Assembly: GCA_017164015.1 (NCBI GenBank)
Contig: CP071065.1
Location: forward strand, 3,479,918 to 3,511,917
DNA from: Nostoc sp. UHCC 0702
GTDB lineage: Bacteria > Cyanobacteriota > Cyanobacteriia > Cyanobacteriales > Nostocaceae
Reading direction: 5' to 3'
Length of the DNA: 32,000 nucleotides
The notes beneath the pieces were generated by a model. It did not search any database. It had not been told where the DNA came from and saw nothing but the letters and a program-made list of their open reading frames with translations. The position numbers and the translations under genes are program-made. The stretch's first letter is position 1. Each line of letters opens with the position of its first letter. This document shows, piece by piece, positions 15,204 through 32,000 of this stretch.

Positions 15204-15300
15204 TGATACAAATAGGCAGCTATAGAGCAGGGGTGCAGGGGTGCAAGGGTGCAGGGGAGCAAAGACTTGTATCAGTAATTGAGTGAAACGGTATGAACCG
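15204..15300. repeat. Dispersed ~90-bp element, copy B
   Basis: Same flanks as 4650-4740. The core here is (G[TA]GCA[GA]GG) x5. Confidence 0.7.
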
Positions 15301-15328
15301 TATTGGTTTATAAATAGCTTCTAAAATT

Positions 15329-15360
15329 AAAAAACCTGGTGCAGATTGACCAGGTTTTTT
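15329..15360. terminator. Bidirectional intrinsic terminator-like hairpin
   Basis: aaaaaacctggt-gcagattg-accaggtttttt. The 6-bp GC-containing stem can be extended by A6/T6 pairing, and there is a U tract on either strand. Confidence 0.6.
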
Positions 15361-15753
15361 AAAATTTACAGGATTCAAATTGGTTAACTTGTAATTCAGG
15401 AGTTTTACAGCTAAGGTGGACATAACAACTAGCAAACTCAGCATTTTCTGTTTTTCCGCTTTGGGATTTGGCTTAGCCTTGTATACTTCCCTTTTCTATA
15501 TATACTTGGCTTTTTACCACTTAACTATTGTTATGCTGAAACTTGCTTGGGCTGCTGACGGGAGACACCTTGTCATTTGCCCGTTTACTTTGGTTGTGGT
15601 TTGTTTGGTGTCCTACTATTTAAGTTATCACTCAATTGGTAATTATCAAACCTCAGTTTACTAAACTTGACGTTTTGTAGAACTTTGCAATATATAGGAC
15701 TCATATTTGATTTTTTAACAAAACTTAGTACACCTTTATTCCTTCTTCCCAGT

Positions 15754-15846
15754 CCCCAGCGATGCACTGAGCTTGTCGAAGTGTCCCCAGCGATGCACTG
15801 AGCTTGTCGAAGTGTCCCCAGCGATGCACTGAGCTTGTCGAAGTGT
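15754..15846. repeat. 31-bp unit ccccagcgatgcactgagcttgtcgaagtgt in three exact tandem copies, embedded in CCCCAGT heptamers
   Basis: Units start at 15754, 15785 and 15816. A further copy lies inside the S8 peptidase ORF at 21642-21672. Confidence 0.9.
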
Positions 15847-15880
15847 CCCCAGTCCCCAGCTATATCATCACCTCCTGAGA

Positions 15881-17428
15881 CTAGTAAAGTGCCGTCGCGG
15901 CTAATGGCAATTTTTCTAATGCTTTAATTTCGCTGCTTTTGGCTTGAGTTTCGCTTTTGTTGGCTTGGTGATAGAGAATGAAAGTTCCTATGCCCAATGC
16001 CATAGAAACCAGCAACCCGATACATACTGCAACTAAAAGATATCTTTGGAATTTAGCAGTTTGTTTTTCTTGTGCTAGTAGTGCTTCTACTTCTTTAACC
16101 CGTGCTGCCTCTAATGCCGTTTGCACTTCGCGCTGTTCGCATTGTTGACTAGCGGCTAAAAATTGATAATCCAAATTGCTGAGACTTTTGCCCTGGGCCC
16201 AGTTTTGAGTATCTTTAAGGGCTTTTCCTCGCAACAGACGCGATTCGTCTTCATAGCCTGATGCTACCCATGCATTGAATGTTTGCGAGTAAGGGCGGAG
16301 ATTATCTAACTGCCTGATTACCCATTCAGCATTGAAAACACTTTCATAGATGGGATTTTTAATTTTGAGATAGCCGTTGTATTTCTCGACTAAACCAGAT
16401 AACAATAGTTCTGTCTGTTCTCGACTATCATCAGTGGGTACACCAGATGTCTGATTTGACTGTGCTTGCAGTATTTGTTGATAAAGTCCTAGCAGGTGTC
16501 CGGCTCGGTGTTCGTGGAAAAGTAGGCGATCTCTGATGGTGCGGAGGTGTTCGGGTTCATCTTGAGATTCCCAATGTAGGATAATGCGGGACTTCACCAA
16601 TTGCTCTATCCAAAACCCCTCAGCACCAGGGGGTATGGTAATCATTTCCGTAGAACTTTCTAGGGCAACCCGCACAACTAATTGGCAGAGTTTCTGTGTG
16701 AGAAACGGTTGTCCTCCTGTCCAGCGCATAATTTCTTGCAAGATTGCTCTGGGTTGGCTGATGATTTGCTCTAAGCCTTTGAGCAGGGGCGTGGCTTCAT
16801 GGAGTTGAAAGCCATATAATTCAATGGCTTGTCCGATATTAAACGGTGTTCTGAGTTTATCAGTTATTAAATCAGATGGACTGACTACGCCAAATAGTGC
16901 AAAACCCAGACGGCTGAAATCTGAGTTATATGCCTGCTGGTTATAGCAATGACGAATCCAAGCAAAAAAGTCGTTGACGGGAAAGTTTAAACTTAGTAAG
17001 CTATCTATCTCATCAATAAAGATGAATATGCGATCGCTCTCTAGTTCTTTTAGTAATACCTGTTCCACGAATTGATGCAATCGTTGCACAGGGGCAAGTT
17101 CTGCTTGTTGCTCCCACCATTGTTTAAAGTTGACTCGCTCCTCTAAGTTGAACTCATAAAACAAACTGACAATAATACCTTTGTACCATTGCACAGGTGT
17201 AGTTGACTCACTGCCCAATCGCGTCACATCTATGTAAACACAGGCATAGCCTTCTTTTTCTAGGCGATGCCTGGTTCGTTGTAGTAGGGATGACTTGCCC
17301 ATCTGGCGGCTGTTTAAGACGTAACAAAAATTCCCGCCTTTTAGCTCAGCATAAAGTTGTTCGTCTGCTTGACGGACGACGTAATTAGGATCATCACCTC
17401 CAAGACTGCCGCCAACTTGATATCTCAT
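15881..17428 (-). CDS. AAA-like / STAND-type P-loop ATPase with a C-terminal coiled coil and a single TM anchor
   Basis: 515-aa ORF with YQVGGSL...YVVRQADEQLY, Walker A NSRQMGKSSL, Walker B IFIFIDEIDS, RTPFNIG and WTGGQPFLTQKLCQLV. The C-terminal hydrophobic segment is YLLVAVCIGLLVSMALGIGTFILY. Confidence 0.85.
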   Translation of the reverse strand: MRYQVGGSLGGDDPNYVVRQADEQLYAELKGGNFCYVLNSRQMGKSSLLQRTRHRLEKEGYACVYIDVTRLGSESTTPVQWYKGIIVSLFYEFNLEERVNFKQWWEQQAELAPVQRLHQFVEQVLLKELESDRIFIFIDEIDSLLSLNFPVNDFFAWIRHCYNQQAYNSDFSRLGFALFGVVSPSDLITDKLRTPFNIGQAIELYGFQLHEATPLLKGLEQIISQPRAILQEIMRWTGGQPFLTQKLCQLVVRVALESSTEMITIPPGAEGFWIEQLVKSRIILHWESQDEPEHLRTIRDRLLFHEHRAGHLLGLYQQILQAQSNQTSGVPTDDSREQTELLLSGLVEKYNGYLKIKNPIYESVFNAEWVIRQLDNLRPYSQTFNAWVASGYEDESRLLRGKALKDTQNWAQGKSLSNLDYQFLAASQQCEQREVQTALEAARVKEVEALLAQEKQTAKFQRYLLVAVCIGLLVSMALGIGTFILYHQANKSETQAKSSEIKALEKLPLAATALY

Positions 17429-17876
17429 GTCAAAATGTTTGATGAAAAATGGCGGAGATTTACCAAATTATATTTTGGCATATAAGTATTTTTTTTCGGT
17501 GTTCTGGAGCCAGTTTTTTTTCTTTGTTTAAAAGGTAAAAATTACATTATGTAAACACTTGTATTTTATTAAACTTTTATAAAAATTATACTTTTTGTTA
17601 GTTCATTTTTACGGCATTTAGGCAATTTACAGTCACTATTTCGCACCTGATGATTAAAATTGCGGTTTATTTTGCACACAAACAAAGTGTGGCGAATCAG
17701 GCTGCAAAATCTTAATTTTATATTAGTACTGCTAGGCAAAAAGAGTTTGTTTAGCTGAACAAGTATCTGGCTCTAATAGTTGCACAGTCAGGGTTCCCTT
17801 GATTGAGTACAACTAGCGTGGGGCTTTAGTCGTTGCGGCAACATGCTCCCATATCAGATCAATCAGACTGATGAGG

Positions 17877-17924
17877 TTAACTGTCTTAACTGTCTTAACT
17901 GTCTTAACTGTCTTAACTGTCTTA
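17877..17924. repeat. Nonamer tandem repeat (TTAACTGTC, about 5 copies)
   Basis: Read directly. It generates the spurious CLNCLN and RQLRQL ORFs on the two strands. Confidence 0.9.
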
Positions 17925-18082
17925 TTTTTTTAGAATTTTTTTTGATTAAGTATCTAATTAGGTATTGCTTTTTATATATATCTTTTGATAGACTATATTC
18001 AATTGTAAAAATTGGTAAATATAGCCAGTATCCATAAATTAATCTTGTAATTTCCAGAATCAACCTTCTGGAAATACAGCTT

Positions 18083-18104
18083 AAAAAAAACCTCTGGATA
18101 GAGG
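18083..18104 (-). terminator. Possible intrinsic terminator downstream of the HTH-ATPase gene
   Basis: The minus strand reads CCTCT-atcc-AGAGG followed by T8. The stem is only 5 bp, about 165 nt after the stop. Confidence 0.4.
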
Positions 18105-18265
18105 CTAAATTTCATGAAAAATTAGGTAAATTAATTTCTATTAGAGAAAAATCTAGAAGAATTAATTTCTACCAGATTTGAGCATAGCTAAATATAGCAC
18201 CCAGCAAATAAACAGACTATGCAGGAGCAAAAAAGCAGATAAAAGGGGTTTCAAACTTCTATTGA

Positions 18266-19690
18266 TTAATGGCTATCCATCGATAATTGTTTTGCAAAAT
18301 AAACACGGTAAAGTTGGCACCGTGGTTTGATGCGATCGCCTTCATAGGCTATCAATCCCAGGCTATCGAGCTGATAAACCTGAATGGGATCAAGATAGAT
18401 ACTTTGTTTTGTTGTTACAACCTGAGTGTATGCTTCCAACAAGCTGGGGTTTTCTTGCAGCTGTGTCCAGTATCGCCATAGATGCTGTCGATAGATCCCA
18501 CCGTTAGCGCTCGCTTCTTGTAAGAGTTCTTCTAAGGTCATACCTTGACAAGTGAGATAATACAGAGCAATCCGAATCAGTGCTGGATGTCCACCCACGA
18601 GAGACATCAATTTGCTCGCCTCTTTACGAGACTTCCATTTCAGTTCGTGCTGACGAGCTAATTCTTCTACCTGTTGGAGAGTAAAATCGCTCAGACGCAA
18701 TGGTAATCCAATGTTGAACGGAGAGCGGTTGATATCGAAAGTCAAATGAACTTCTGTAGAGTAAACAATCACTAGCCTGAGTTTCTGCCAGTTACTATCT
18801 TGATGTCCTTCCTCATGCCACGATCGCAACAAAGGAAAAAACTCTTGAGCAATTTGGGGATATTCAAAAAAGCGGTCAACTCGCTCTAACACAACGACTA
18901 TTGGACGTTGGATTTGTTTGAGTAAGTAATTTTTCAAGTAGAAACTACAGCTGAACTTACTGCCAATTTCTTCATCCCAGTAGGCATCTAGTTGGGGATC
19001 AATGCCTAATTCTGTAGCTAGTCGCCAGCAAAAACTACGGAAAAATTGGTCTAAATTACTCAGACAGAAGGCATCGATTTGGTGGCAATCTAATTTGATC
19101 GTGTAATATTCCTGTTGGTGGGCAAAAGCTAACAGCCGCAGCACCAGAGAGCTTTTACCCATTTCTCTGGGAGCATGAATGCGAATCACAGAACCTGGTT
19201 GAGTTATTTCCTGATAGACAAGCTCCTCAATGGGTGGACGTTTGATATAAAGGGGAGAATCTAGGGGAACAGGGCCATCTGGGTATGAGCAATAAAACTC
19301 CAAATTTCTGGGCTGTTGTCTACTCAAAGAGCTTTTAACTATTGATGTCAACGGATATATCGGTTTGTCGTGGGAGTCCAAACTTGAATACAAGGCTTGA
19401 GCGGTTTGATTGTCTTCTACAGTCTCAATGCTATAGTCTTCTTCAGATAATTCCAGACCAAAAGCGTTAAAGCATAGTTTGAGCGTTCGCCGATCCACAC
19501 TTACACTCGAATACCATAACCGATTCAAGGTTTTTGTGGATATGTTCATGCGATCGCTTAACTCGTCTAAGCTGAAGCGATGGCCCTTGTTCTGCTTGAT
19601 CTCTACAGCCCGAATTGCCCTCTGTAAGCGCTTCAGACCCACAGAAGTTAACAAAACTCCCCGTTTACGCGTGGTTTTTGCTTGTTTCAT
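18266..19690 (-). CDS. HTH-fused AAA-like ATPase (AAA_35-type) with a deviant Walker B
   Basis: The ORF is open to 19894 (542 aa), but the ATG at 19690 has AGGTGA 4 nt upstream and starts at MKQAKTTRKRGVLLTSVGLKRLQ. It carries the HTH-like segment FSLDELSDRMNISTKTLNRLW, then DSPLYIKRPPIEE, Walker A HAPREMGKSSL, Walker B position VVVLERVD, RSPFNIG and VGGHPALI. Confidence 0.8.
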   Translation of the reverse strand: MKQAKTTRKRGVLLTSVGLKRLQRAIRAVEIKQNKGHRFSLDELSDRMNISTKTLNRLWYSSVSVDRRTLKLCFNAFGLELSEEDYSIETVEDNQTAQALYSSLDSHDKPIYPLTSIVKSSLSRQQPRNLEFYCSYPDGPVPLDSPLYIKRPPIEELVYQEITQPGSVIRIHAPREMGKSSLVLRLLAFAHQQEYYTIKLDCHQIDAFCLSNLDQFFRSFCWRLATELGIDPQLDAYWDEEIGSKFSCSFYLKNYLLKQIQRPIVVVLERVDRFFEYPQIAQEFFPLLRSWHEEGHQDSNWQKLRLVIVYSTEVHLTFDINRSPFNIGLPLRLSDFTLQQVEELARQHELKWKSRKEASKLMSLVGGHPALIRIALYYLTCQGMTLEELLQEASANGGIYRQHLWRYWTQLQENPSLLEAYTQVVTTKQSIYLDPIQVYQLDSLGLIAYEGDRIKPRCQLYRVYFAKQLSMDSH

Positions 19691-20120
19691 CTCGTCACCT
19701 AATTTAACTGAGGACACCTTTGACTTTTTGTCTCTGGAGCTATCCCGATCGCCAATTACGCCAAATATGGGATTACCTTGGTTATTTGGTAACAATGCAC
19801 TAGAGCAAAGCTTTTCCATTATGCTGGTGTATTTTTTGTTAGCGCTTTTGTTAACGATACATTTTAAAATACATTCTGGAGCTTGATCAAGCAAGGCTTA
19901 TTCAGTAATATTACGGTTTTTTTAATAATTCAAAATAAATTTTCCTACTTTTCTTACTTTTCTTACTTCAGTAGGCAGAGGAACACACCTTTAGGACTGG
20001 GAACTGAGAACTGGGAATATCTAAACTGCGAAGACTAAATTTGTGCATTAGCTTGACTCTTGTGGAATGGGCGTCTCGCCCGTCCGTTATTGGCGGGCCG
20101 GACAGCCCTTGTCACGCTAC

Positions 20121-20161
20121 TGTCAGATCCCCGACTTCTTCAAGAAGTCGGGGATCTGACA
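20121..20161. repeat. Perfect 41-nt palindrome (19-bp stem, 3-nt loop) 16 nt downstream of the S8 peptidase stop
   Basis: tgtcagatccccgacttct-tca-agaagtcggggatctgaca. No U tract follows on either strand. Confidence 0.85.
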
Positions 20162-20176
20162 ATAGCCTCCGCGCCT

Positions 20177-22363
20177 TCATCGTCTTTGCTTCACCGCTTG
20201 CACTGCTGCATCTGCGTTCACAAGTCCTTTACCAAAGAAGTACTGCTGTCCTTTGACTGAAGAAGATACTGCACCTTTGCGCCGCTGTGAACGATATACC
20301 CTGGCATCTTCGTCAGAGATATTTAGCCATTCATAACTAGCTGTAGATTTGAGGATACTAACTAAACGTTCTCTGCGAATTTGTTTATTTTCGCCTTTCA
20401 TTAATGCCACTACCCCGGCTACGGCTGGCGCAGAGAAAGATGTACCCTGCACCCACCAATATTTGCCGCGTTGATCTAGCACTGAAGACCAACGAGAGTT
20501 AGGGTTAGGTATTCCTTGCCAAAAAGCATCTAGCCAAGTACCGCCTGTGGTGGGAATTCCACCTATAAATCCTGGTGTGTCAAAATCTCCTCCTGGCGCA
20601 ACTAAATCTAATCCTTTGCCGTAGTTACTATAAGGAGCGCGATTCCCTACAATATTAGTTGCACCAACAGCAACCACTCCCGGATAAGCAGCGGGATAGG
20701 CTACTTGGTTGGAGTTTTCGTTACCAGCAGAAGCGACAATTACCAGTTTCGGGTTGGCTTTGAGGACATCAGCGATCGCTTCTTCTTCTCCTTGACTAGG
20801 GAGAGTACTACCCAAGCTGAGATTAATGATATCAGCACCGCGATCGCTAGCATAGCCAATAGCCTCAATATAAGCAGAAGGGCTATAACTACCATTTAAT
20901 CCAAACAGCCGCACAGGTAAAATTTGAGCATTGGGAGCTACACCCACTAATCCTTGCCCATTTTGGGATTTAGCTGCAATTACACCACTCACCCAAGTAC
21001 CATGAAATTCTCCCCCGACTTTGTAAGTCCGAAAAACGTAACGTAAAACATCAGCAATTTGCTTTACAGAATAATCTGGCTTGTTTTGCTTAACTTCCAA
21101 CGCCTCTTCGGGGTATTGCTGCACTAGTTCGGCATCAGATAGTTTGAAAGTATCTTGAAATCTGGCTTTGAGGATGGCGAGTTCGTCACGACTAATGCGC
21201 GTATCGCCATCACCGATTTCACAGGGTTCGAGACTATTACCACCACTAGAAAAATCCCAGCCGTGAATTTCAGTTGGGCATTTGTCAGCAGCTTTAACGG
21301 TGTACAAACTACCAGCCAAATCAGGATGATCCCATTGAATCAAGCTGTCTAAAACTGCTACAACTACACCACGTCCGCCGTTACTATGTTTCCAGGCATC
21401 AGTGACGCGAATATCTGTACGGGATACAGTAGACTTTGTACCCGCAGTCGGTTGTTGCAGGCAGTTTTGCAGTGATTCCCAACTAGATATCGGCTGTGAC
21501 AAACATTGTTTTAAAGGTTCACTGTCCAAATGCCACGCGAATCCTAGTAATGGGGATTGGGTATTAGGTAATGGGGATTGGGTATTGGGTATTGGGGATT
21601 GGGTATTAAGAAAACTCTTGCCCCAGTCCCCAGTCCCTAGTCCCCAGCGATGCACTGAGCTTGTCGAAGTGTCCCCAGCCCCTAGTCCCCAGTCCTTTTT
21701 ACTAACTGATTGGATAAAGTTGGGAGCAGCAGAAGTGACTCCTTTAACGTTGTATAGTTGGTTAGCGACATTGAGAATTTGTGTTCCAGCCGCTGCTGTG
21801 GACTTTACTAGATAGCGATCGCGATTGAAGCGCAACGGACGTACAATTGCCAAATTATTCTGCTGTAAAATAGCTTGTCTTTGACTTTGTGAAACTTTGG
21901 GTTCAAAGCTCACAATAATTTCATTGGGCAAAACAATAACTTCTTTGGTTTCCTGGCGAGTTAGTACTGGTAGGGTATTTTCCACATAAGGTTGTTGTTG
22001 AATGCGCTGCTGAATAGTTGCGGCAATATCGGGAACTTGAGATGGCAGACTGACAACAGCATAGTTTTCACCCAAAGGACTAACTGTAGGTGAATTACCG
22101 CCTCGAACACCACCTTTGAGTGATTCTTGGAGTTGCAGATAAAAAGGTTGAGCCGCAATACCACGAGTACCAATCTTCTTAAAAGAGACAGCGATCGCAT
22201 CCTGCCTTTGATTTAGAGGAATACGTTGTCCTTTATAAATGTAAAATAAATCACTGCCTTCTTGACTTTGAGCAACCGCTGTCACTTGCGGTGGAATGCA
22301 GAACATACCCAACCCAGACCAAATACAAGCAGTTAGCAAAATACCAGATGTGATGCGTTTCAT
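20177..22363 (-). CDS. Secreted S8 (subtilisin-family) serine peptidase with an N-terminal pro-region
   Basis: 728-aa ORF. Signal peptide: MKRITSGILLTACIWSGLGMFCIPPQVTAVA. Catalytic Asp in VVVAVLDSLIQWDHPDL, His in EFHGTWVSGVIAA, Asn in ASAGNEN and Ser in GTSFSAPAVAGVVAL. Confidence 0.9.
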   Translation of the reverse strand: MKRITSGILLTACIWSGLGMFCIPPQVTAVAQSQEGSDLFYIYKGQRIPLNQRQDAIAVSFKKIGTRGIAAQPFYLQLQESLKGGVRGGNSPTVSPLGENYAVVSLPSQVPDIAATIQQRIQQQPYVENTLPVLTRQETKEVIVLPNEIIVSFEPKVSQSQRQAILQQNNLAIVRPLRFNRDRYLVKSTAAAGTQILNVANQLYNVKGVTSAAPNFIQSVSKKDWGLGAGDTSTSSVHRWGLGTGDWGKSFLNTQSPIPNTQSPLPNTQSPLLGFAWHLDSEPLKQCLSQPISSWESLQNCLQQPTAGTKSTVSRTDIRVTDAWKHSNGGRGVVVAVLDSLIQWDHPDLAGSLYTVKAADKCPTEIHGWDFSSGGNSLEPCEIGDGDTRISRDELAILKARFQDTFKLSDAELVQQYPEEALEVKQNKPDYSVKQIADVLRYVFRTYKVGGEFHGTWVSGVIAAKSQNGQGLVGVAPNAQILPVRLFGLNGSYSPSAYIEAIGYASDRGADIINLSLGSTLPSQGEEEAIADVLKANPKLVIVASAGNENSNQVAYPAAYPGVVAVGATNIVGNRAPYSNYGKGLDLVAPGGDFDTPGFIGGIPTTGGTWLDAFWQGIPNPNSRWSSVLDQRGKYWWVQGTSFSAPAVAGVVALMKGENKQIRRERLVSILKSTASYEWLNISDEDARVYRSQRRKGAVSSSVKGQQYFFGKGLVNADAAVQAVKQRR
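21552..21695. repeat. Intergenic-type repeats lying in frame inside the S8 ORF: a 21-bp unit x3, CCCCAGT heptamers, and one copy of the 31-bp element
   Basis: On the minus strand this encodes WGLGAGDTSTSSVHRWGLGTGDWGKSFLNTQSPIPNTQSPLPNTQSPLL. Positions 21642-21672 are identical to the 31-mer at 15754-15846. Confidence 0.85.
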
Positions 22364-22382
22364 AAATTTTGACTCTACTTTT

Positions 22383-22578
22383 AGTTGTTAGTTGTCAGTT
22401 GTTAGTTGTCAGTGGTCAGTTGTTAGTTGTTAGTTGTCAGTTGTCAGTTGTCAGTTGTTAGTTGTTAGTTGTTAGTTGTCAGTTGTCAGTTGTCAGTTGT
22501 TAGTTGTCAGTTGTTAATACTCTCACCTTTCCCCCCCTGCTCCCCTGCTCCCCTGCTCCCCTGCTCCCCTGCTCCCCC
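22383..22578. repeat. Composite STRR cassette: (TTGTCAG/TTGTTAG) x about 19, a spacer, then (CCCCTGCT) x about 6
   Basis: Read directly. It fills almost the entire 224-nt gap between the small secreted-protein gene and the S8 gene. Confidence 0.9.
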
Positions 22579-22587
22579 GCTACCTAC

Positions 22588-22896
22588 TCAGCTTCCCCAA
22601 TCAACGTAAATGCAGCCCATTGCAGAGGTTGAGGATATGTCTGCATTGTCGCTATGGTCGCCCAAAACCCACGGCTTACTTACCTTGTGTGATTTGAATT
22701 GCCTCTCCTCTGCAAAGTAATCAATAAAACTCCCTGACACAGCAGAATTTTGGTTTATTTGATTATTCGCTGTTTGTGCCGACACCTGTGGTAGCGAGAA
22801 AAGTACTGAAAAATTCTGCGGCAATGTTGGTACAAATGTAGCCAGAAAAGCACTCAAAGCAATTACAATCATTTTGCGAAAACGCATAGTTATCAT
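22588..22896 (-). CDS. Small secreted protein of unknown function
   Basis: The ORF track starts this ORF at a TTG (22926) that overlaps the CHAT gene. The ATGs at 22896 and 22887 give MITMRFRKMIVIALSAFLATFVPTLPQNFSVLFSLPQVSA/QT, which is a signal peptide. It begins 17 nt after the CHAT stop. Confidence 0.55.
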   Translation of the reverse strand: MITMRFRKMIVIALSAFLATFVPTLPQNFSVLFSLPQVSAQTANNQINQNSAVSGSFIDYFAEERQFKSHKVSKPWVLGDHSDNADISSTSAMGCIYVDWGS

Positions 22897-22912
22897 CTCA
22901 ACTTCTCTGGAA

Positions 22913-24379
22913 CTACGAAACACCAATCAAGGTAAAAGCTGCCCAATCTCTAAGATTAGGGTATTTTTTCCTAGTTGCTAGCATCGCATGACGTAAAGCA
23001 GAAGCCTTATCTGGATTTTCACTTAATTTTTGATAAAACTCTGTCATTAATAACACTGTTGATTTATCAGATACATCCCACAAAGAGCCAACTATGCTAG
23101 GAACCCCTGCGACAAAGAAAGAGCGCGACAAGCCTATCACCCCATCTCCTGTGATTTTGCCTAATGCTGTATCATTAGCGCTGAGTACAACTAACTCTGC
23201 TTTTAGATTTAAGTTCAAAATTTCTTCATAAGTCAGCAAACTGTCACCCCCTTGCTCAGGAGCTAATACCAGTGCGCCTAATGTCTGCGTTCCCTGAATA
23301 TGATTGCAGACTCCTTGAGTTGCCAAGTGAATTATTCTCGCTTCCCGCATTCGCTGCACGACTGCTGTCTCAGTTGCAGCATTACCTGTCAATGCTTGGG
23401 TATGCAAAATCTCTGCAATGGCTTTTGCTTCTTGTTCAGCCCCTGGTAAAGGTGATAGTTTTCGGGGTGTTTCTCCTGGTTTACATGCAATGCTGGGCAT
23501 AGTAGGATTACCAACAATTAAAACATCTTTAGCGATACCTTGAATCCGCTGTTTTTGTTGGTATAGTAAGTCCAAGACTTGGATAGAGGGTGCAATATTA
23601 ATAGTGTGTTTTTCAATTAAATATTTGCCATTTCTATCCTGCAAGGCGGCAAAGGGAACTAAGAATAATTCACCTTGAGGAATGAAAATCACATGTTCTT
23701 GTGAATTTTTTGGCAAAATCTTGGCGATGGGTGCAATTAAAATTTCATGTAGCTGCTGTAGTTGTTCTTTTGGACTAGCTTGTTGTCCTGATGCGTCTGG
23801 TTTGATGGGAAATATTCCTTTATGATCATTGCTGCTGACACCCATTTTTTCACGACTTCTGAGAATAAAATCACTCAAAGATAAATTAAATTTCTGCCAT
23901 AGGGGTTTTAAGTCAACGCGCTGAAAATCAACTTCACCCGTTGGTCTAATTACCCAAATATATAGTTCTGAATCACGGTTTATTTGTTGATTATTTTGGT
24001 TAATTTCGTCGGTGACAATGGTATACTGTACTAATGTAGCTTTTTGTTGTTTAGCGATTTGTTTGATTTGGTCAATATTAGGTGGGTTGGCTGAAGTTTG
24101 ACCAATTTGGTTGGACAATAAATTCACAAAAGCACGAGCGCGGATACGTTCGGAAAATTCCAGTGCTGCTGAGGTTCGATTTTGTTCAGCTAGAGTTTTT
24201 AGTATTTGATTATAAGTCTGATTTTGATTGGTGGTGACATTGTTATTTGAAGTTTGTGCTAAAACTTTATTATCTGGCAAGTCAATGAATGATATCCAAT
24301 TTTTATTAGTAAACTGAGAAAATATAGAGATGGTAGTCGAAATCATCAAGAATATCATGAATTGAGGGATTATTTTCAC
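22913..24379 (-). CDS. CHAT-domain (caspase-fold) protein with both catalytic positions substituted; N-terminal signal or anchor
   Basis: 488-aa ORF with a GTG start preceded by GGAG. The CHAT C-terminal half reads ..IIHLATQGV..LTYEEILNLNLKAELVVLSANDTALG..GDGVIGLSRSFFVAGVPSIVGSLWDVSD..LMTEFYQKL..ALRHAML..WAAFTLIGV. The expected ATHG and LSAC motifs read ATQG and LSAN. Confidence 0.85.
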   Translation of the reverse strand: MKIIPQFMIFLMISTTISIFSQFTNKNWISFIDLPDNKVLAQTSNNNVTTNQNQTYNQILKTLAEQNRTSAALEFSERIRARAFVNLLSNQIGQTSANPPNIDQIKQIAKQQKATLVQYTIVTDEINQNNQQINRDSELYIWVIRPTGEVDFQRVDLKPLWQKFNLSLSDFILRSREKMGVSSNDHKGIFPIKPDASGQQASPKEQLQQLHEILIAPIAKILPKNSQEHVIFIPQGELFLVPFAALQDRNGKYLIEKHTINIAPSIQVLDLLYQQKQRIQGIAKDVLIVGNPTMPSIACKPGETPRKLSPLPGAEQEAKAIAEILHTQALTGNAATETAVVQRMREARIIHLATQGVCNHIQGTQTLGALVLAPEQGGDSLLTYEEILNLNLKAELVVLSANDTALGKITGDGVIGLSRSFFVAGVPSIVGSLWDVSDKSTVLLMTEFYQKLSENPDKASALRHAMLATRKKYPNLRDWAAFTLIGVS

Positions 24380-24454
24380 AGCCTACTCCATAATTGTGAT
24401 GTTTTTAATAAACTTGCACTATTAGTTATTTAGGCAAATTTCGAGCTTTACTGC

Positions 24455-24535
24455 TTAATGTTGTCCAGAGACGACTTGCATAGAGACAAAAATACCAGCA
24501 GCAGCTAAAATTAGCGATCGCATCATATGTTTCAT
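24455..24535 (-). CDS. Candidate 26-aa hydrophobic peptide ORF upstream of the CHAT gene
   Basis: Manual translation gives MKHMMRSLILAAAGIFVSMQVVSGQH, with AAGGA about 10 nt upstream of the ATG. It is below the ORF-track size cut-off and has no other support. Confidence 0.25.
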   Translation of the reverse strand: MKHMMRSLILAAAGIFVSMQVVSGQH

Positions 24536-24611
24536 AAGATTTGTCCTTGTTTAGGGATAGTTCAGAAGTTATTTATTGTCCAACCAGGTGATAGTCAACT
24601 GGTAACTCACA

Positions 24612-24648
24612 GACATATATCTTCAGGCGGTGAGAGGATATGTAAAAA
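24612..24648. repeat. 37-nt conserved hairpin motif, copy A
   Basis: gacatatatct-tcaggcggt-gagaggatatgtaaaaa. The 11-nt and 17-nt flanks are identical to those at 28431-28467. Confidence 0.7.
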
Positions 24649-24777
24649 CTGGACAAAAATCTTGTCAATCAGGGTAATTTAGCATATAAAGACGGCAGAT
24701 GATTGTGCAGGCGATCGCCTGCACACCTTTCCTAAAAGCTATACAATAAAAAATAAATTTACATTCATGTTCTGTTT

Positions 24778-25533
24778 ATGGCAACCCAACTCGGTGAAGC
24801 AAAATCACTAACTGAACCAGTAATCTCTTGGGAAGCGTTGCCCGACGATTTTCAATTAGAGGATGAACCAGTGGAGAATATCGGACAGCCAATTTTGGCT
24901 GGTGCTTTGCGTGAAAGTTTAGAAATCAGTGGTTTCATCCAATCCCAGATGTTAATAGCTTCCAATTTTGGTCTTTGTGCAACTGTTAACGGGCAATTTA
25001 TAGTTAAAGCACCTGACTGGCTTTACGTACCGTCGGTTAATCAAGTTGTGGAAAATCGTAAAAGTTATACACCAAATTTAGAAGGTGATATTCCGGCAAT
25101 TGTGATAGAGTTTCTCTCCGACACCGAGGGCGGAGAATATTCAGTCAAGCGCACTTATCCACCAGGAAAATGGTTTTTCTACGAGCAAATTTTGCAGATA
25201 CCCATTTATGCAATTTTTGACCCAGATGGCGGTTTATTAGAATTTTATCAATTAGAAAATAAACGCTATGAATTAAAACAACCCAATGAAAATGGTCGTC
25301 ATTGGGTTGAGGCAATGAACTTATTTCTAGGAACTTGGCAAGGTACTAAAGAATCCCGAACTGGTTATTGGTTGCGGTGGTGGGATGAAGCTGGTAATTT
25401 CTTACCTTGGGCTGTGGAACAGATTGAACAAGAACGCCAACGTGCTGAACAAGAACGCCAGCAAAAAGAACGACTGATTGCTTATTTGCAATCTCAAGGT
25501 ATTGACCCGAATAATTTACCTTCTTTGGAGTAG
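24778..25533 (+). CDS. Uma2-family (DUF820) putative endonuclease
   Basis: 251-aa ORF with ..KAPDWLYVP.., ..PAIVIEFLSDT..E...K...Y...IPIYAIFDP.. and the C-terminal WLRWWDEAGNFLPW plus a Glu/Arg/Gln-rich tail. This arrangement is typical of the cyanobacterial Uma2 family as I remember it. Confidence 0.75.
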   Translation: MATQLGEAKSLTEPVISWEALPDDFQLEDEPVENIGQPILAGALRESLEISGFIQSQMLIASNFGLCATVNGQFIVKAPDWLYVPSVNQVVENRKSYTPNLEGDIPAIVIEFLSDTEGGEYSVKRTYPPGKWFFYEQILQIPIYAIFDPDGGLLEFYQLENKRYELKQPNENGRHWVEAMNLFLGTWQGTKESRTGYWLRWWDEAGNFLPWAVEQIEQERQRAEQERQQKERLIAYLQSQGIDPNNLPSLE

Positions 25534-26455: not shown

Positions 26456-26478
26456 GATATTGTTTATCGAAAATTTTA

Positions 26479-28664: not shown

Positions 28665-29028
28665 TTCAGGTTTAAGTCATCAAGCGGACATGATATAGGA
28701 TTTATGCTGAAAGTGAAAAGTCAACTTTTTTACCTATTTTTGCTGTTATAGCGTTTTTGAACTGGCAGTAATCTTATACAAATCTCGCACCTGCCCAATT
28801 TACCGCCAAGAAATAAATTTCTTGGCTCAAAGCTGAAGTAAGCTAAAGCTAACTAAATATAAATTTCAGTCCGTTTTAGCGGACTTTAGCTATAAGCCTT
28901 GAACTTAAGTTCAAGGCGTACTCAGGGGAAGAAGCAAGATCTAAAAAATCATTATTACCCAACTTAGTCAGGGAGCTGAGGTAAGTGTCTCGACGGTTCT
29001 CAAAGTCAAAAACTCAAATATCAGTTAG

Positions 29029-32000
29029 CATGAAATTGCTTTGCTGGTCAATGACAGCAGCAATGGCATTAGGGTTACTGGTAAGCATTCCAAGGGAAGT
29101 GACAGGACAATCTCAGCCGCCACTGTCAGCACAACAGTCAGCAGAGTTGGAGGAAGCCAAGCGACTGAATCAACAAGTCGTTCAGTTGTATGGGGAAGGT
29201 AAATACAGTCAAGCCATCCCCCTAGCAGAACGCGCCTTGGCAATAACAGAGAAAGTACTGGGTGCATATCATCCTGATGTGGCTACTAGCCTGAACAGTT
29301 TGGCTGTACTGTACCGAGAACAGGGAAGCTATGAAAAAGCTGAACCTCTGTATCTACGTTCGCTGGCAATTAGAGAGAAAGTACTGGGTGCATATCATCC
29401 TGATGTCGCCAATAGCTTGAACAATTTGGCTCTACTTTACAATGCACAGGGAAGCTATGAAAAAGCTGAACCTCTGTATCTGCGATCTCTGGCAATAAAA
29501 GAGAAAGTACTGGGTAAAGAACATCCCTCTGTCGCCACTAGCCTCAGCAATTTGGCTGTACTATACCTAGAACAGGGAAGCTATGAAAAAGCTGAACCGC
29601 TGTTTGTGCGCTCTCTGGCAATAACAGAGAAAGTACTGGGTAAAGAACATCCCTCTGTCGCCACTAGCCTCAGCAATTTGGCAGCACTTTACCAAAAACA
29701 GGGAAGCTATGAAAAAGCTGAACCGCTGTTTGTGCGCTCTCTGGCAATTTTTGAGAAAGTACTGGGTGCATATCATCCTGATGTCGCCACTAGCCTCAGC
29801 AATTTGGCAGCACTTTACCAAGCACAGGGAAGCTATGAAAAAGCTGAACCGCTGTTTGTGCGATCTTTGGCAATAAAAGAGAAAGTACTGGGTGCATATC
29901 ATCCCTCTGTCGCCATTAGCCTCAACAATTTGGCAGCACTTTACCAAGAACAGGGAAGTTATGAAAAAGCTGAACCTCTGTATCTGCGCTCTCTGGCAAT
30001 TTTTGAGAAAGTACTGGGTGCATATCATCCTGATGTCGCCACTAGTCTCAACAATTTGGCAACACTTTACAATGCACAGGGAAGCTATGAAAAAGCTGAA
30101 CCGCTGTTTGTGCGATCTTTGGCAATAAAAGAGAAAGTACTGGGTGCATATCATCCTGATGTCGCCACTAGCCTCAACAATTTGGCAGAACTTTACCATG
30201 CACAGGGAAGCTATGAAAAAGCTGAATCTCTGTATCTGCGCTCTTTGGCGATTAGGGAGAAAGTACTGGGTGCATATCATCCTGATGTCGCCACTAGTCT
30301 CAACAATTTGGCAACACTTTACAATGCACAGGGAAGCTATGAAAAAGCTGAACCGCTGTTTGTGCGATCTTTGGCAATAAAAGAGAAAGTACTGGGTGCA
30401 TATCATCCTGATGTCGCCACTAGTCTCAACAATTTGGCAGTACTTTACGATGGACAGGGAAGCTATGAAAAAGCTGAATCTCTGTATCTGCGCTCTTTGG
30501 CGATTAGGGAGAAAGTACTGGGTGCATATCATCCTGATGTTGCCATTAGCCTCAACAATTTGGCTATGCTATACCTAAAACAAGGAAGCTATGAAAAAGC
30601 TGAACCGCTGTTTGTGCAATCTGTGGCAATAAAAGAGAAAGTACTGGGTGCATATCATCCCTCTGTCGCCACTAGCCTCAACAATTTGGCAGCACTTTAC
30701 CAAAAACAGGGAAGCTATGAAAAAGCTGAACCGCTGTTTGTGCGATCTCTGGCGATTAGAGAGAAAGTACTGGGTGCATATCATCCTGATGTCGCAGAAA
30801 GCCTGAACAATTTAGCACGACTTTACCAAGAACAGGGAAGCTATGAAAAAGCTGAACCGCTGTTTTTGCGATCGCTGGCAATAACAGAGAAAGTACTGGG
30901 TGCATATCATCCCTCTGTCGCCACTAGTCTCAACAATTTGGCAGAACTTTACCGAGAACAGGGAAGCTATAAAAAAGCAGAACCGCTGTTTTTGCGATCG
31001 CTGGCAATTTATGAGAAAGTACTGGATAAAAAACATCCTGATGTTGCCACTAGCCTCAGCAATTTGGTATCACTGTATTGGGCGCAAGGTGATATGATTC
31101 GTACTACTGACTTTCTCAGCCGTGAGCTAGAAGTTGAAAAGCATAATTTGCCACTCATCTTTGCTGTTGGTTCAGAACAGAGAAAACAAAACTATGCTAA
31201 AATCTTTACATCGTCAACCAACCTTGCTGTTTCTCTCGCCTTCCAAAAAGCTGCCAAGAATCCCACAGTATCACGCCTGGCACTAACAACAGTATTACGC
31301 CGTAAAGGGCTGGTACTAGATGCCGTTGCCGACAACATACAAACGCTACGCAGTCAACTAGCACAGAAGCCAGAAACGAAAAAATTATTAGATGAATGGT
31401 TGAATGTACTGCAACAGTTATCAACACTGGTATACAGGGGACAGGGAAAGCTAACACCTGAACAATATCAAGCGCAATTTAAACAACTAGAAGCAGAGAA
31501 AGAACGCCTAGAAGATGCTATCAGCCGTCTTAATGCTGAGTTCCGCACCACCACCCAACCAGCAGAGTTAGCAGCTATCCAAACTAAGATACCACTAGAT
31601 GCAGCTTTGGTAGAAATTGTGTTGTATAAACCATTTAATCCCAAAGCCAAATCAACTGAAAAATACGGCAAACCGCGTTATGCTGCGGCGGTGCTGCGTT
31701 CTTCTGGTGAACCAAAGTGGATAGACTTAGGTGATGCTGCGGCTATTGACAAGTCTGTGACGAATCTGCGAGAAGCTTTAGCAAACAAATCTCCTTTAGA
31801 AACGAATCAGGAGAACAAAAATAATGCTATTAAAGAAAATGATAACCGAGAAAGCGATCGCTCAATCTTCAAAGTTGAGCCTGTTAGCGATATCGCATCT
31901 GTGCAAAAACTCGCGCGGACATTAGATCAGCAAGTCATGGCACCCATTCGCCCACTGTTGGGTGATGCGCGTCATCTATTGCTTTCACCCGATGCACAGT
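29029..32000 (+). CDS. Signal-peptide TPR-repeat protein leading into a CHAT domain; the ORF continues past the right edge
   Basis: Absent from the ORF track because there is no stop inside the window. Manual translation gives MKLLCWSMTAAMALGLLVSIPREVTGQ..., then about 15 units of 42 aa (LAxLYxxQGSYEKAEPL[YF][LV]RSLAIxEKVLGAYHPDVATSLNN), then a helical linker. The last residues (..LLGDARHLLLSPDAQ) resemble the start of a CHAT domain. Confidence 0.85.
29236..31065. repeat. 126-bp tandem coding repeat (about 14.5 units) with a 252-bp higher-order duplication
   Basis: Read directly. The block around 30050-30300 recurs at about 30300-30550. The repeat creates long stop-free antisense frames. Confidence 0.9.

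What the first reader, a model, noticed from the sequence alone, without database searches (positions are those of the whole stretch)
15881..24535. Candidate multi-gene system: two divergent AAA-like/STAND ATPases next to an exported dead-CHAT, small-protein and subtilase operon
Seen in sequence: all of these genes lie on the minus strand, in this order.
- A possible 26-aa peptide ORF (24455-24535).
- The dead CHAT gene (22913-24379).
- A ~100-aa secreted protein gene starting 17 nt later (22588-22896).
- A 224-nt gap that is pure STRR.
- A secreted S8 peptidase gene (20177-22363).
- An HTH-fused AAA-like ATPase gene (18266-19690).
- A membrane-anchored AAA-like ATPase gene (15881-17428).

The same 32 kb also holds a TPR-CHAT gene, a TPS exoprotein gene and the triplicated ATPase-arm protein.

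Established knowledge: in multicellular bacteria, STAND-type NTPases, CHAT/caspase-like peptidases, TPR arrays and other peptidases repeatedly co-occur in NTP-dependent conflict and programmed-cell-death-type systems.

Inference: this could be such a module. Two features are unusual: the protease components all carry export signals, and the CHAT member is catalytically dead. Gene linkage alone does not prove a functional connection.
Basis: inference. Interest (0 to 1): 0.68.

Follow-up and report, generated by a model that had tools for sequence, protein, structure and literature searches.

The report
Decayed exported CHAT/subtilase cassette beside unrelated ATPases
The proposed seven-gene system is really two unrelated gene modules brought together by a genome rearrangement and each damaged by a deletion; the protease half is what is left of a previously undescribed exported "dead protease + live protease + subtilase" cassette found widely in filamentous cyanobacteria.

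Summary
The ORFs and domain calls are real: a CHAT with its dyad lost (His→Gln, Cys→Asn), an intact S8 subtilase, two AAA_35 ATPases and an STRR-filled gap.

Three listed components are not what they seemed.
- The ~100-aa "secreted protein" is the stump of a ~2,070-aa exported WD40–TPR–CHAT gene with an intact dyad. About 5.9 kb is missing relative to Nostoc sp. NIES-4103, and the 3' end is read out of frame.
- The "membrane-anchored ATPase" is a truncated AAA_35–TM–WD40 gene (~1.9 kb deleted).
- The 26-aa ORF is not conserved.

The ATPase link fails. An AAA_35 profile found nothing in 69 CHAT/S8 loci. Five ATPase contexts with 10-kb flanks carry no CHAT or S8. In NIES-4103 the two blocks lie ~5.8 Mb apart.

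The protease link holds and is larger than proposed. Short signal-peptide-bearing dead CHATs form one clade across Nostocales. In 24 of 36 evaluable loci by the script's 800-nt criterion (26 counting two split partner genes), a long live TPR/WD40-CHAT follows directly on the same strand; an S8 orthologue follows in 11. An intact copy sits on Nostoc punctiforme plasmid pNPUN01.

The suggested mechanism, a dead paralogue regulating the live exported CHAT with S8 as a processing protease, is inference only.

The parts
22913..24379 (-). Exported pseudo-CHAT (488 aa). It has an N-terminal hydrophobic signal-like segment, no TPR, and both dyad residues replaced (Q355, N402 in 488-aa numbering).
   Evidence: Pfam CHAT E 1.2e-71. 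Dyad columns in 120 homologues. It belongs to one clade of short dead CHATs in the NJ tree. AlphaFold model with pLDDT 78.8 and pTM 0.83; best PDB matches are Csx29 TPR-CHAT, separase and periplasmic DdvA. dN/dS is 0.33 against the NIES-4103 orthologue.
22588..22926 (-). Deletion stump of an exported WD40-TPR-CHAT gene with an intact dyad. It consists of a signal peptide and ~76 native codons, ~43 nt of unaligned filler (about 22650-22692), then the native 3' end read out of frame.
   Evidence: blastn against NIES-4103: window 25562-22693 matches L002 8732-11669, then window 22649-22566 matches L002 17580-17666. Junction alignment and frames. The intact 2,069-aa protein has 'HLATHG' and 'LSACDTG'. 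A 93%-identical relative still carries a >1,813-aa gene at this position.
22383..22581 (.). STRR spacer (heptamer x19, then octamer x6) between the stump and S8. Synteny with NIES-4103 ends at about 22566.
20177..22363 (-). Exported S8 subtilase (728 aa) with an intact catalytic triad, a conserved Cys-rich insert between Asp and His, and an STRR-derived in-frame linker (about residues 240-275; DNA 21547-21647).
   Evidence: Pfam. Alignment of 9 orthologues with D339/H454/N548/S642 invariant. Orthologues sit next to CHAT genes in many Nostocales. It falls below the NCBIfam cut-offs for mycosin and every other named subfamily.
19987..20186 (.). Rearrangement junction between the protease block and the ATPase block. 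It is filled with short tandem repeats.
   Evidence: S8 homology to CENA67 ends at window 20186. ATPase-block homology to NIES-4103 begins at window 19987. Repeats at 19940-19968 and 19996-20017.
18266..19690 (-). HTH-AAA_35 protein (474 aa from the ATG at 19690), with Walker A 'GKS'. It belongs to an abundant multi-paralogue Nostocales family.
   Evidence: Pfam AAA_35 E 1.3e-144. 1,720 homologues, several named XRE-family HTH regulator. The orthologue in NIES-4103 is 87% identical and lies at 2.39-2.41 Mb.
15881..17428 (-). Truncated AAA_35-TM-(WD40) gene. The AAA_35 domain, coiled coil and single TM helix remain. The ~14-blade WD40 part is deleted, with the junction at about 15920/15921, and the reading frame is lost.
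   Evidence: blastn: window 18286-15920 matches L066 11640-13994, then window 15921-15865 matches L066 15902-15958. Intact 1,253-aa orthologue sequence. The window sequence shows 'SSEIKAL' joined out of frame to the last blade, 'KIAISRDGTLLVSGGDD'. Full-length partners of 1,215-1,253 aa follow HTH-AAA_35 in three genomes.
24455..24535 (-). 26-codon ORF in the spacer upstream of the dead CHAT. Probably not a gene.
   Evidence: In NIES-4103 it has a 3-nt and a 10-nt indel that change length and C-terminus. Its identity is the same as the flanking non-coding DNA, 88%.
28985..31999 (+). Context: a signal-peptide-bearing TPR_12 x15 protein that runs off the window. Its NIES-4103 orthologue is a 1,266-aa live TPR-CHAT, a possible alternative partner for the orphaned dead CHAT.

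Best explanation
The region holds two independent modules, placed side by side by a lineage-specific rearrangement and each damaged by a deletion inside a WD40-repeat gene.

Module 1 (22566-24379 plus S8 at 20177-22363) is what remains of an exported protease cassette conserved in Nostocales. The cassette consists of a short signal-peptide-bearing CHAT paralogue without a working His-Cys dyad, then, usually within 0-25 nt, a long signal-peptide-bearing TPR- or WD40-CHAT with an intact dyad, and often an exported S8 subtilase. In this genome the live CHAT gene has been reduced to a 100-codon frameshifted stump. The cassette has therefore lost its cysteine-protease activity and keeps only the pseudo-protease and the subtilase.

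Module 2 (15881-19690) is a separately conserved pair, HTH-AAA_35 plus AAA_35-TM-WD40. Its second member has lost its WD40 part, which is predicted to lie outside the cytoplasm.

How the intact cassette would work is inferred, not shown. All three proteins are exported to the periplasm or beyond. The dead paralogue binds the live CHAT protease or its substrates as a non-catalytic regulator, either a cFLIP-like dominant-negative or activating partner or a decoy. The S8 peptidase processes or is processed by the CHAT proteins. The ATPases take no part.
For: Shown:
- Deletion stumps are defined by collinear DNA alignment to NIES-4103. A nearer relative still has the large gene.
- Dead CHATs form one clade, separate from the long live forms. 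72 of the top 120 homologues lack the dyad, and their N-termini look like signal peptides.
- By the script's 800-nt criterion, 24 of 36 evaluable dead-CHAT genes have a same-strand CHAT directly downstream, 15 of them within 60 nt. That becomes 26 and 17 when two partners split by frameshifts are counted. S8 lies downstream in 11.
- An intact cassette is annotated on N. punctiforme pNPUN01, NPUN_RS34195 to RS34215.
- Partner domains are TPR_12 or WD40 plus CHAT.
- No AAA_35 occurs in any CHAT/S8 locus, with positive controls recovered. No CHAT or S8 occurs in the five ATPase contexts with 10-kb flanks. The blocks are 5.8 Mb apart in NIES-4103.
- The S8/ATPase junction is absent from CENA67.

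Supporting the inferred mechanism:
- Very short or overlapping intergenic distances are typical of co-translated partners.
- Within the dead clade some lineages keep His and others keep Cys, so catalysis was lost repeatedly while the protein was retained.
- More than 100 positions are invariant among 20 dead members.
- The one solved periplasmic TPR-CHAT, DdvA, is a dimer whose partner is proposed to complete the active site (PMC11506125).
- Inactive caspase-fold domains have been proposed as dominant-negative or decoy elements in bacterial conflict systems (PMC7159879).
Against: - No experiment or expression data exist for any member. Export is inferred from N-terminal sequence only; the window's own dead CHAT has an unusually long stretch between the hydrophobic core and the 'VLA-QT' site.
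- About 10 of the 36 evaluable dead CHATs are solitary, for example the S/C group in L039, L042, L043 and L046, so the pairing is not obligatory.
- S8 accompanies only about a third of pairs and stands alone in Allocoleopsis.
- The NJ tree has no support values.
- A dN/dS of 0.33 is only moderate constraint, and it averages two lineages.
- The heterodimer idea could not be tested because no multimer prediction tool was available.
- Only two close relatives define the rearrangement.
Confidence: 0.68

Rival explanations
1. One reading: the two AAA_35/STAND-like ATPases and the dead-CHAT/small-protein/S8 operon form one NTP-dependent conflict or programmed-cell-death system.
For: All genes are co-oriented within 8.6 kb. 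STAND NTPases and caspase-fold peptidases do co-occur in published bacterial conflict systems (PMC7159879).
Against: No AAA_35 occurs in 69 CHAT/S8 loci. No CHAT or S8 occurs in the five ATPase contexts with 10-kb flanks. The blocks are 5.8 Mb apart in the nearest complete genome. The junction lies in a 200-bp repeat patch absent from CENA67. The proteases are exported whereas the ATPase domains are cytoplasmic. Two of the proposed components are truncated. PADLOC gave no hit below E 0.001 for the CHAT or either ATPase.
Confidence: 0.04
2. The dead CHAT and S8 in this window are still a working pair. After its cognate partner was lost, the pseudo-protease now serves another exported live TPR-CHAT encoded nearby (28985-31999) or elsewhere in the genome.
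For: Both ORFs are intact, and the S8 triad is intact. The dead CHAT shows dN/dS 0.33. A live signal-peptide TPR-CHAT lies 4.6 kb away and is conserved in NIES-4103. Nostocales genomes carry many paralogous live TPR-CHATs in the same islands. Solitary dead CHATs exist in other genomes.
Against: In CENA67 the dead CHAT itself has been reduced to an ~80-codon stub next to the same S8. This suggests the dead paralogue becomes dispensable once the partner is gone. The deletion is recent, since a 93%-identical relative keeps the large gene, so intact ORFs say little about current selection.
Confidence: 0.2
3. The dead CHATs are merely decaying tandem duplicates of neighbouring live CHAT genes and have no function of their own. 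The apparent pairing only reflects local duplication.
For: The dyad positions are highly variable (Q, S, T, I, Y, N, M, W / N, G, D, S, C). The islands are rich in CHAT paralogues, fragments and pseudogenes.
Against: Dead CHATs from different genera are closer to each other (55-65% identity) than to their own neighbours (~50%) and form one clade. They keep full length, signal-like N-termini and more than 100 invariant residues. Gene order and spacing are conserved from Nostoc to Calothrix, Rivularia, Fischerella and Mastigocoleus.
Confidence: 0.06
4. The two deletions are assembly artefacts caused by collapse of WD40 repeats, and the strain actually has full-length genes.
For: Both deletions involve highly repetitive WD40-coding DNA.
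Against: The first deletion also removes non-repetitive TPR and CHAT sequence and ends in unique DNA. The source contig is 8.59 Mb, chromosome scale. CENA67 shows an independent, larger deletion at the same locus.
Confidence: 0.04

Closest known systems
TPR-CHAT proteases: Csx29/Craspase of type III-E CRISPR, and separase
   Same: Same fold. Pfam CHAT E 1.2e-71, and the best Foldseek matches are Csx29 and separase (E 5e-14 to 1e-8). The partners in intact cassettes combine TPR or WD40 arrays with a C-terminal CHAT.
   Different: The window protein lacks both catalytic residues and has no TPR. It carries a signal-like N-terminus, whereas Csx29 and separase are cytoplasmic or nuclear. No CRISPR or Cas7-11 is nearby. 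The NCBIfam Csx29 model scores 14.7 bits against a 300-bit cut-off.
DdvA, the periplasmic TPR-CHAT anti-sigma factor of Myxococcus xanthus (PDB 8ROT; PMC11506125)
   Same: It is the only solved extracytoplasmic TPR-CHAT and a structural match to the model. It is dimeric, with each active site facing the partner protomer, which is a precedent for CHAT-CHAT pairing outside the cytoplasm.
   Different: DdvA keeps the His-Cys dyad, is membrane-anchored with a cytoplasmic anti-sigma domain, and pairs with an ECF sigma factor. None of these is present here.
Pseudo-protease regulators of caspase-fold enzymes (cFLIP with caspase-8), and the inactive caspase effector domains of bacterial VMAP ternary systems (Kaur et al. 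2020, PMC7159879)
   Same: In each case a catalytically dead paralogue is retained alongside active relatives. It has been proposed to act as a dominant-negative partner, activating partner or decoy.
   Different: Those are cytoplasmic and NTPase-coupled, or eukaryotic. Here the pair is exported, encoded as two adjacent genes, and not linked to any NTPase. The analogy rests on my knowledge of cFLIP and on inference, not on a test.
EACC2-caspase-CHASE2 / DUF1822 neighbourhoods (Kaur et al. 2021, PMC8195603)
   Same: In N. punctiforme pNPUN01 and Nodularia NIES-3585, DUF1822, CHAT and CHASE2 genes lie immediately upstream of the TPR-CHAT / dead-CHAT / S8 genes.
   Different: No DUF1822, CHASE2 or DUF928 gene is in this window. 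The dead-CHAT/live-CHAT/S8 trio is not part of the published description.
AAA_35 (PF14516) proteins of cyanobacteria
   Same: Both ATPases match the family above threshold and keep Walker A 'GKS'. The HTH-AAA_35 plus AAA_35-TM-WD40 gene pair recurs in NIES-4103, N. minutum NIES-26 and Scytonema PRP1.
   Different: The second member here is truncated after the TM helix. No function or solved structure was found for the family (the literature search was uninformative).

Membership tests
CHAT peptidase (Pfam PF12770, MEROPS clan CD) | Sequence match to the CHAT domain above the gathering score | tested here: met
   242 bits against a 24-bit cut-off, covering profile positions 2-288 of 289.
CHAT peptidase (Pfam PF12770, MEROPS clan CD) | Catalytic His-Cys dyad | tested here: not met
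   His is replaced by Gln ('HLATQG') and Cys by Asn ('LSANDT'), whereas 48 live homologues have 'HLATHG' and 'LSACDTG'. It has the fold but is a predicted pseudo-enzyme.
CHAT peptidase (Pfam PF12770, MEROPS clan CD) | Caspase/separase-type fold | tested here: met
   AlphaFold pTM 0.83. Foldseek probability 1.00 to Csx29, separase, DdvA and SAVED-CHAT.
Subtilase (Peptidase_S8) | Domain match plus Asp-His-Ser triad and oxyanion Asn | tested here: met
   176.8 bits. D339, H454, S642 and N548 are invariant in 9 orthologues.
Type VII secretion mycosin, PatA/PatG, CspBA and other named S8 subfamilies (NCBIfam) | Score above the curated cut-off | tested here: not met
   The best is mycosin, 139 bits against 278.75. 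All others are far below their cut-offs.
AAA_35 ATPase (PF14516) | Domain match above the gathering score, and a Walker A P-loop | tested here: met
   481.5 and 99.7 bits against a 27-bit cut-off. 'MGKSSL' is present in both sequences.
NTPase-coupled conflict / PCD system (STAND or AAA+ NTPase with peptidase effectors; Kaur et al. 2020) | Conserved operonic linkage, or fusion, of the NTPase with the effector peptidases across genomes | tested here: not met
   Zero AAA_35 hits in 69 CHAT/S8 loci, with controls recovered. Zero CHAT or S8 genes in five ATPase contexts with 10-kb flanks. The blocks are 5.8 Mb apart in NIES-4103.
Known anti-phage defence systems (PADLOC-DB v2) | Match of the component proteins to defence-system models | tested here: not met
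   No hit below E 0.001 for the dead CHAT or either ATPase; the one listed match, mads_8, has E 0.0099. S8 matches only a generic 'subtilase' model.
Type III-E CRISPR Craspase (Csx29) | NCBIfam Csx29 model above its cut-off, with neighbouring Cas7-11/CRISPR | tested here: not met
   14.7 bits against 300. No cas genes among the window ORFs, and no Rfam match.
Nostocales exported dead-CHAT / live-CHAT / S8 cassette (defined in this report) | A short dead CHAT of the monophyletic clade, followed on the same strand by a long live TPR/WD40-CHAT | tested here: not met
   The dead CHAT is present and belongs to the clade. The live partner is reduced to a frameshifted stump. The window is a degraded copy.
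Nostocales exported dead-CHAT / live-CHAT / S8 cassette (defined in this report) | An S8 orthologue downstream | tested here: met
   The window S8 is 55-76% identical to the cassette S8 genes aligned and 91% identical to the CENA67 S8. Intact reference copy.
Nostocales exported dead-CHAT / live-CHAT / S8 cassette (defined in this report) | Export of all three proteins | not testable with these tools
   N-terminal hydrophobic segments followed by A-x-A/'LAQT'-type sites are seen by eye. No signal-peptide predictor or localisation data were available.

The most novel reading that the evidence does not exclude
Heterocyst-forming cyanobacteria have an undescribed extracytoplasmic caspase-fold protease module. 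In it an anciently derived, exported pseudo-CHAT is the regulatory partner (activator, inhibitor or substrate decoy) of an exported TPR/WD40-CHAT protease, with an S8 subtilase completing a periplasmic proteolytic cascade. It would be a bacterial, extracellular counterpart of the cFLIP/caspase-8 arrangement, often plasmid-borne and adjacent to CHASE2 sensor genes. It is directly testable in Nostoc punctiforme (pNPUN01, NPUN_RS34195 to RS34215).
Probability: 0.3. Interest if true: 0.7.

Novelty: new variant of a known kind. Interest (0 to 1): 0.42.

Why it matters
For this window the result is mostly corrective. The proposed ATPase-protease system does not exist as a unit, and two of its "components" are gene wrecks, so it should not be carried forward as a candidate defence system.

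The by-product is more useful. There is a monophyletic family of exported CHAT pseudo-proteases, tightly coupled to live exported TPR/WD40-CHAT genes and often to one particular S8 subtilase, across Nostocales. It shows repeated independent loss of either catalytic residue.

CHAT proteases are known from cytoplasmic settings (Craspase, SAVED-CHAT, separase) and from one periplasmic anti-sigma factor. What the many secreted TPR-CHAT proteins of multicellular cyanobacteria do is unknown. A conserved dead partner gives a concrete handle on their regulation, and an intact copy lies on a plasmid of a genetically tractable model strain.

The locus also shows how quickly these islands decay. Three close relatives carry three different states of the same cassette.

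Tried and rejected
- PADLOC scan of the five proteins of the finding plus Uma2 and the 992-aa TPR protein: no hit below E 0.001 for the CHAT or either ATPase, and only a generic subtilase model for S8.
- Rfam gathering scan of the whole window: no matches.
- Promoter and terminator consensus scan of 14600-24900: counts no higher than in shuffles (21 against 23.2; 10 against 8.4). It says nothing about operon structure.
- The 26-aa ORF as a leader or precursor peptide: rejected because of indels in the nearest relative.
- S8 as mycosin, PatA/G, dentilisin or CspBA: all far below the curated cut-offs.
- PDB sequence search for AAA_35: only spurious RecA hits.
- Literature searches:
  - CHAT + cyanobacteria + subtilase; inactive or secreted CHAT; and exoproteomes of Anabaena and Nostoc found no description of the dead/live CHAT pair or of these proteins in exoproteomes.
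  - The 'AAA_35/PF14516' search returned only irrelevant accession-like matches.
- Look-up of P0004 failed because the exact sequence was not on record; this was solved through the plasmid collection. P0002's contig gave a gene table but no DNA.
- The single HTH hit near an S8 locus (L022) was checked. It is an HTH-NB-ARC/NACHT protein 6 kb away in one genome, not AAA_35.
- I considered that window 28391-28249 matching L066 9577-9712 meant the whole protease block was inserted upstream of the ATPase. I rejected this because that stretch is also native to the CHAT-block synteny with NIES-4103 and CENA67, so it is a short dispersed element.

Full report
**1. What is in the sequence**

Pfam confirms the domain calls:
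- CHAT at 22913-24379 (E 1.2e-71);
- Peptidase_S8 at 20177-22363 (E 7.9e-52);
- AAA_35 at 18266-19894 (E 1.3e-144; the ATG at 19690 matches the start of homologues);
- a more divergent AAA_35 at 15881-17428 (E 1.9e-28).

The CHAT protein reads 'IIHLATQG' and 'VVLSANDTA' where active relatives read 'HLATHG' and 'LSACDTG', so both dyad residues are gone. The S8 protein keeps D339, H454, N548 and S642, which are invariant in nine orthologues. The 22383-22581 spacer is a heptamer x19 plus an octamer x6, typical Nostocales STRR.

**2. The "small secreted protein" is a gene stump**

The dead CHAT has thousands of homologues. I scanned one genome per species with an alignment of dead members and ran tblastn and phmmer on the 65 loci.

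- The first ~73 residues of the window's ~100-aa ORF match the beginning of a very large gene that follows the dead CHAT in Nostoc sp. NIES-4103 (L002), Scytonema sp. PRP1 (L001) and two other Nostoc (L003, L004).
- DNA alignment to NIES-4103, whose dead CHAT is 82% identical, is collinear from window 32000 down to 22693. It then jumps from L002 11669 to 17580 and continues to window 22566.
- The skipped 5.9 kb is the interior of a 2,069-aa ORF. That ORF encodes a signal peptide, WD40 repeats filling most of the protein (15 Pfam WD40 stretches), a TPR-like segment recognised by eye in the translation, and a C-terminal CHAT domain with an intact dyad.
- At the junction the window ORF reads the old 3' end in a different frame: 'DNADISSTSAMGCIYVDWGS*' instead of 'TMQTYPQPLQWAAFTLIGEAE*'.
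- A metagenomic relative with a 93%-identical dead CHAT still has a >1,813-aa gene in this position.

The deletion is therefore recent, and the ORF is a pseudogene remnant rather than a component.

**3. The "membrane-anchored ATPase" is also truncated**

The NIES-4103 orthologue of the HTH-AAA_35 protein (87% identity) is followed about 0.9 kb downstream by a 1,253-aa AAA_35 protein. That protein has one TM helix and ~14 WD40 blades after it.

The window is collinear with this locus from 19987 to 15920. It then skips 1.9 kb and resumes for 57 nt. The window sequence joins 'SSEIKAL' out of frame to the last blade, 'KIAISRDGTLLVSGGDD', and stops 11 codons later. A perfect 31-bp x3.3 repeat follows.

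**4. The 26-aa ORF**

In NIES-4103 this ORF carries a 3-nt and a 10-nt indel, and it is no better conserved than the rest of the spacer. I do not count it as a gene.

**5. Are the ATPases linked to the proteases?**

They are not.
- An AAA_35 profile, built from 120 homologues plus the window's second ATPase, finds nothing at E<1e-3 in the 65 CHAT loci, three further S8 loci or the N. punctiforme plasmid locus. It recovers all 11 AAA_35 genes in the seven ATPase loci.
- Conversely, five HTH-AAA_35 contexts with 10-kb flanks (NIES-4103, N. minutum NIES-26, N. punctiforme, Scytonema PRP1, Stigonema ocellatum) contain no CHAT or S8.
- In three of those five, the HTH-AAA_35 gene is followed by a 1,215-1,253-aa AAA_35-WD40 gene. 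The two ATPases therefore form their own conserved pair.
- In NIES-4103 the ATPase pair is at 2.39-2.41 Mb and the dead CHAT at 8.21-8.23 Mb of the same chromosome.
- In Scytonema PRP1 and Stigonema the two modules are on different contigs.
- In Nostoc sp. CENA67 (S8 91% identical) S8 is followed by a TPR gene, Uma2, a TPR-CHAT and a C14 peptidase.
- The window's S8/ATPase junction falls in a 200-bp patch of short repeats, 19987-20186.

**6. What the protease half is**

Among the 120 best homologues of the dead CHAT, 72 lack the His-Cys dyad. These are 400-530 aa long, have no TPR, and begin with a hydrophobic, signal-peptide-like segment ending in 'VLAQT'- or 'VQA'-type sites. The next-best hits are long TPR-CHAT proteins with 'HLATHG' and 'LSACDTG'.

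In an NJ tree of 94 CHAT modules, all short dead forms fall in one clade, separate from the long live forms (no support values). Inside that clade some lineages keep His (H/N, H/S, H/G) and others keep Cys (M/C, Y/C, N/C, S/C, Q/C). The ancestor therefore probably had both residues, and catalysis was lost several times while the protein was kept. Twenty diverse dead members share more than 100 invariant positions. The window copy shows dN/dS 0.33 against NIES-4103.

Gene order is conserved.
- By the script's criterion, 24 of 36 dead-CHAT genes with at least 1.5 kb of downstream sequence have a same-strand CHAT gene within 800 nt, 15 of them within 60 nt or overlapping.
- Counting L001 and L004, where the large partner is split by a frameshift, these become 26 and 17.
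- Wherever the partner's dyad could be read, it is His/Cys.
- The partners carry TPR_12 arrays or WD40 arrays plus CHAT, and their N-termini look like signal peptides.
- An orthologue of the window's S8 (55-76% identity) lies downstream in 11 of the 36 loci, directly after the live CHAT where gene order is clear.
- It also appears next to CHAT genes in L010, L026 (fused to TPR), L028, L060 and Nodularia.
- In Allocoleopsis the S8 stands alone.

An intact, annotated copy lies on the conjugative plasmid pNPUN01 of Nostoc punctiforme PCC 73102:
- a TPR-CHAT (NPUN_RS34195, live);
- a short CHAT (RS34200, Q/N, 67% identical to the window's);
- 22 nt later, a 2,172-aa WD40-CHAT (RS38035, live);
- S8 (RS34210);
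- another CHAT gene.

DUF1822, CHAT and CHASE2 genes lie upstream. That neighbourhood type was described by Kaur et al. 2021 (PMC8195603).

**7. State of the cassette in three close relatives**

- NIES-4103 has the dead CHAT and the live WD40-TPR-CHAT, but no S8 within 3.8 kb.
- The window has the dead CHAT, a stump of the live gene, and S8.
- CENA67 has only an ~80-codon stub of the dead CHAT directly before S8.

The island is evidently unstable in this clade. The window copy has lost the only catalytically competent CHAT of the cassette.

**8. Structure**

An AlphaFold model of the dead CHAT (pLDDT 78.8, pTM 0.83) matches Csx29 TPR-CHAT, separase, the periplasmic TPR-CHAT of the anti-sigma factor DdvA, and SAVED-CHAT. 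The fold is kept. The loops just after the two former catalytic positions are the least confident parts.

DdvA is the only solved extracytoplasmic TPR-CHAT. It is a dimer in which each active site faces the other protomer (PMC11506125).

**9. Mechanism (inferred)**

The intact cassette most likely exports three proteins. The live TPR/WD40-CHAT is the cysteine protease, and its repeat arrays select substrates. The dead paralogue corresponds to the C-terminal ~440 residues of a live protein plus a signal peptide. It would bind the live enzyme or its substrates without cutting, as a regulator or decoy. S8 would be a processing protease.

Three things support this: the tight translational-coupling-like spacing, the long retention of a non-catalytic protein, and the DdvA precedent for CHAT-CHAT contacts. 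Kaur et al. 2020 (PMC7159879) made a similar proposal for inactive caspase domains.

None of this has been tested, and a quarter to a third of dead CHATs are solitary. For the window itself, the cassette is probably non-functional in its original sense. Alternatively, the dead CHAT may now act with another live TPR-CHAT, such as the gene at 28985-31999.

**10. Novelty and score**

I found no paper describing the dead/live exported CHAT pair or its S8 partner. It is a new variant of known kinds: TPR-CHAT proteases, and pseudo-protease partners.

The finding as submitted, an ATPase-protease conflict system, is not supported, and the local copy is degraded, so I score it moderately. The family-level pattern is the part worth following up.

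Noticed in passing
window 21547-21647 (S8 codons ~240-275): STRR heptamers (GTATTGG x8.7, CCCCAGT x3.9) lie inside the S8 coding sequence. They are translated in frame as 'WGLGAGD...WGLGTGDWG...NTQSPIPNTQSPLPNTQSPL' and replace a variable linker between the N-terminal domain and the catalytic domain. The Nostoc CMAA1605 orthologue (L016) has a similar but shorter version.
   Followed up: partly
window 15752-15859: A perfect 31-bp x3.3 tandem repeat, followed by GTCCCCA x2, lies immediately after the truncated AAA_35 gene. It sits at the place where homology to the NIES-4103 WD40 gene ends.
   Followed up: no
L066 12486-16247; L068 12443-16114; L071 13106-16753: Full-length AAA_35-TM-WD40 proteins have the ATPase before a single TM helix and ~14 WD40 blades after it. 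This predicts an extracytoplasmic beta-propeller on a cytoplasmic P-loop ATPase, always paired with an HTH-AAA_35 gene. It is an unusual architecture and no literature on it was found.
   Followed up: partly
window 1488-4466 (-): A 992-aa ORF contains a 480-bp unit repeated 3.1 times at 88% identity (2489-3972), followed by C-terminal TPRs. The N-terminal 700 residues match no Pfam family at E<0.001.
   Followed up: no
window 4959-11197 (+): A 1,521-aa histidine kinase has an ethylene-receptor-like ETR1_N domain, six PAS domains and HisKA_2. It overlaps by 4 nt a hybrid receiver-PAS-HisKA kinase. It is not a TPS exoprotein.
   Followed up: no
window 24778-25533 (+); L073 1735-2532 and 7138-7725; L075 12632-13261: Uma2-family (putative restriction endonuclease-like) genes repeatedly sit on the opposite strand beside the dead-CHAT or S8 genes in the window, NIES-4103, CENA67 and Nodularia.
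   Followed up: no
L073 10915-13182; L075 17571-19847: In CENA67 and Nodularia NIES-3585 the order S8, Uma2, TPR-CHAT is followed by a Peptidase_C14 (orthocaspase)-DUF4384 gene. The islands therefore combine three protease families.
   Followed up: no
L076 (N. punctiforme pNPUN01 109927-135195); plasmid hits H2-H15: Many dead/live CHAT and S8 genes are on large conjugative or mobilizable plasmids of Nostoc, Tolypothrix, Microchaete, Calothrix, Aulosira and Anabaena. This suggests the cassette is accessory and horizontally mobile.
   Followed up: partly
window 28249-28391 vs L066 9577-9712; window 20025-20096 vs L002 1636-1706: Short (70-140 nt) stretches, 85% identical, are shared between otherwise unrelated intergenic positions of the window and NIES-4103. 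They are probably small dispersed elements near rearrangement points.
   Followed up: partly
window 27190-28179: The body of the 350-aa TPR gene (27197-28249) is present in the window and CENA67 but absent from the otherwise collinear NIES-4103 locus. Conversely, the HTH_32 and PPIC genes (25718-27087) are absent from CENA67.
   Followed up: partly
L022 19606-21317: Calothrix sp. NIES-4101 has an HTH-NB-ARC/NACHT (STAND) gene 6 kb downstream of its dead-CHAT/live-CHAT/S8 cassette. Its HTH resembles that of the window's HTH-AAA_35. This is a single case and was not seen elsewhere.
   Followed up: partly
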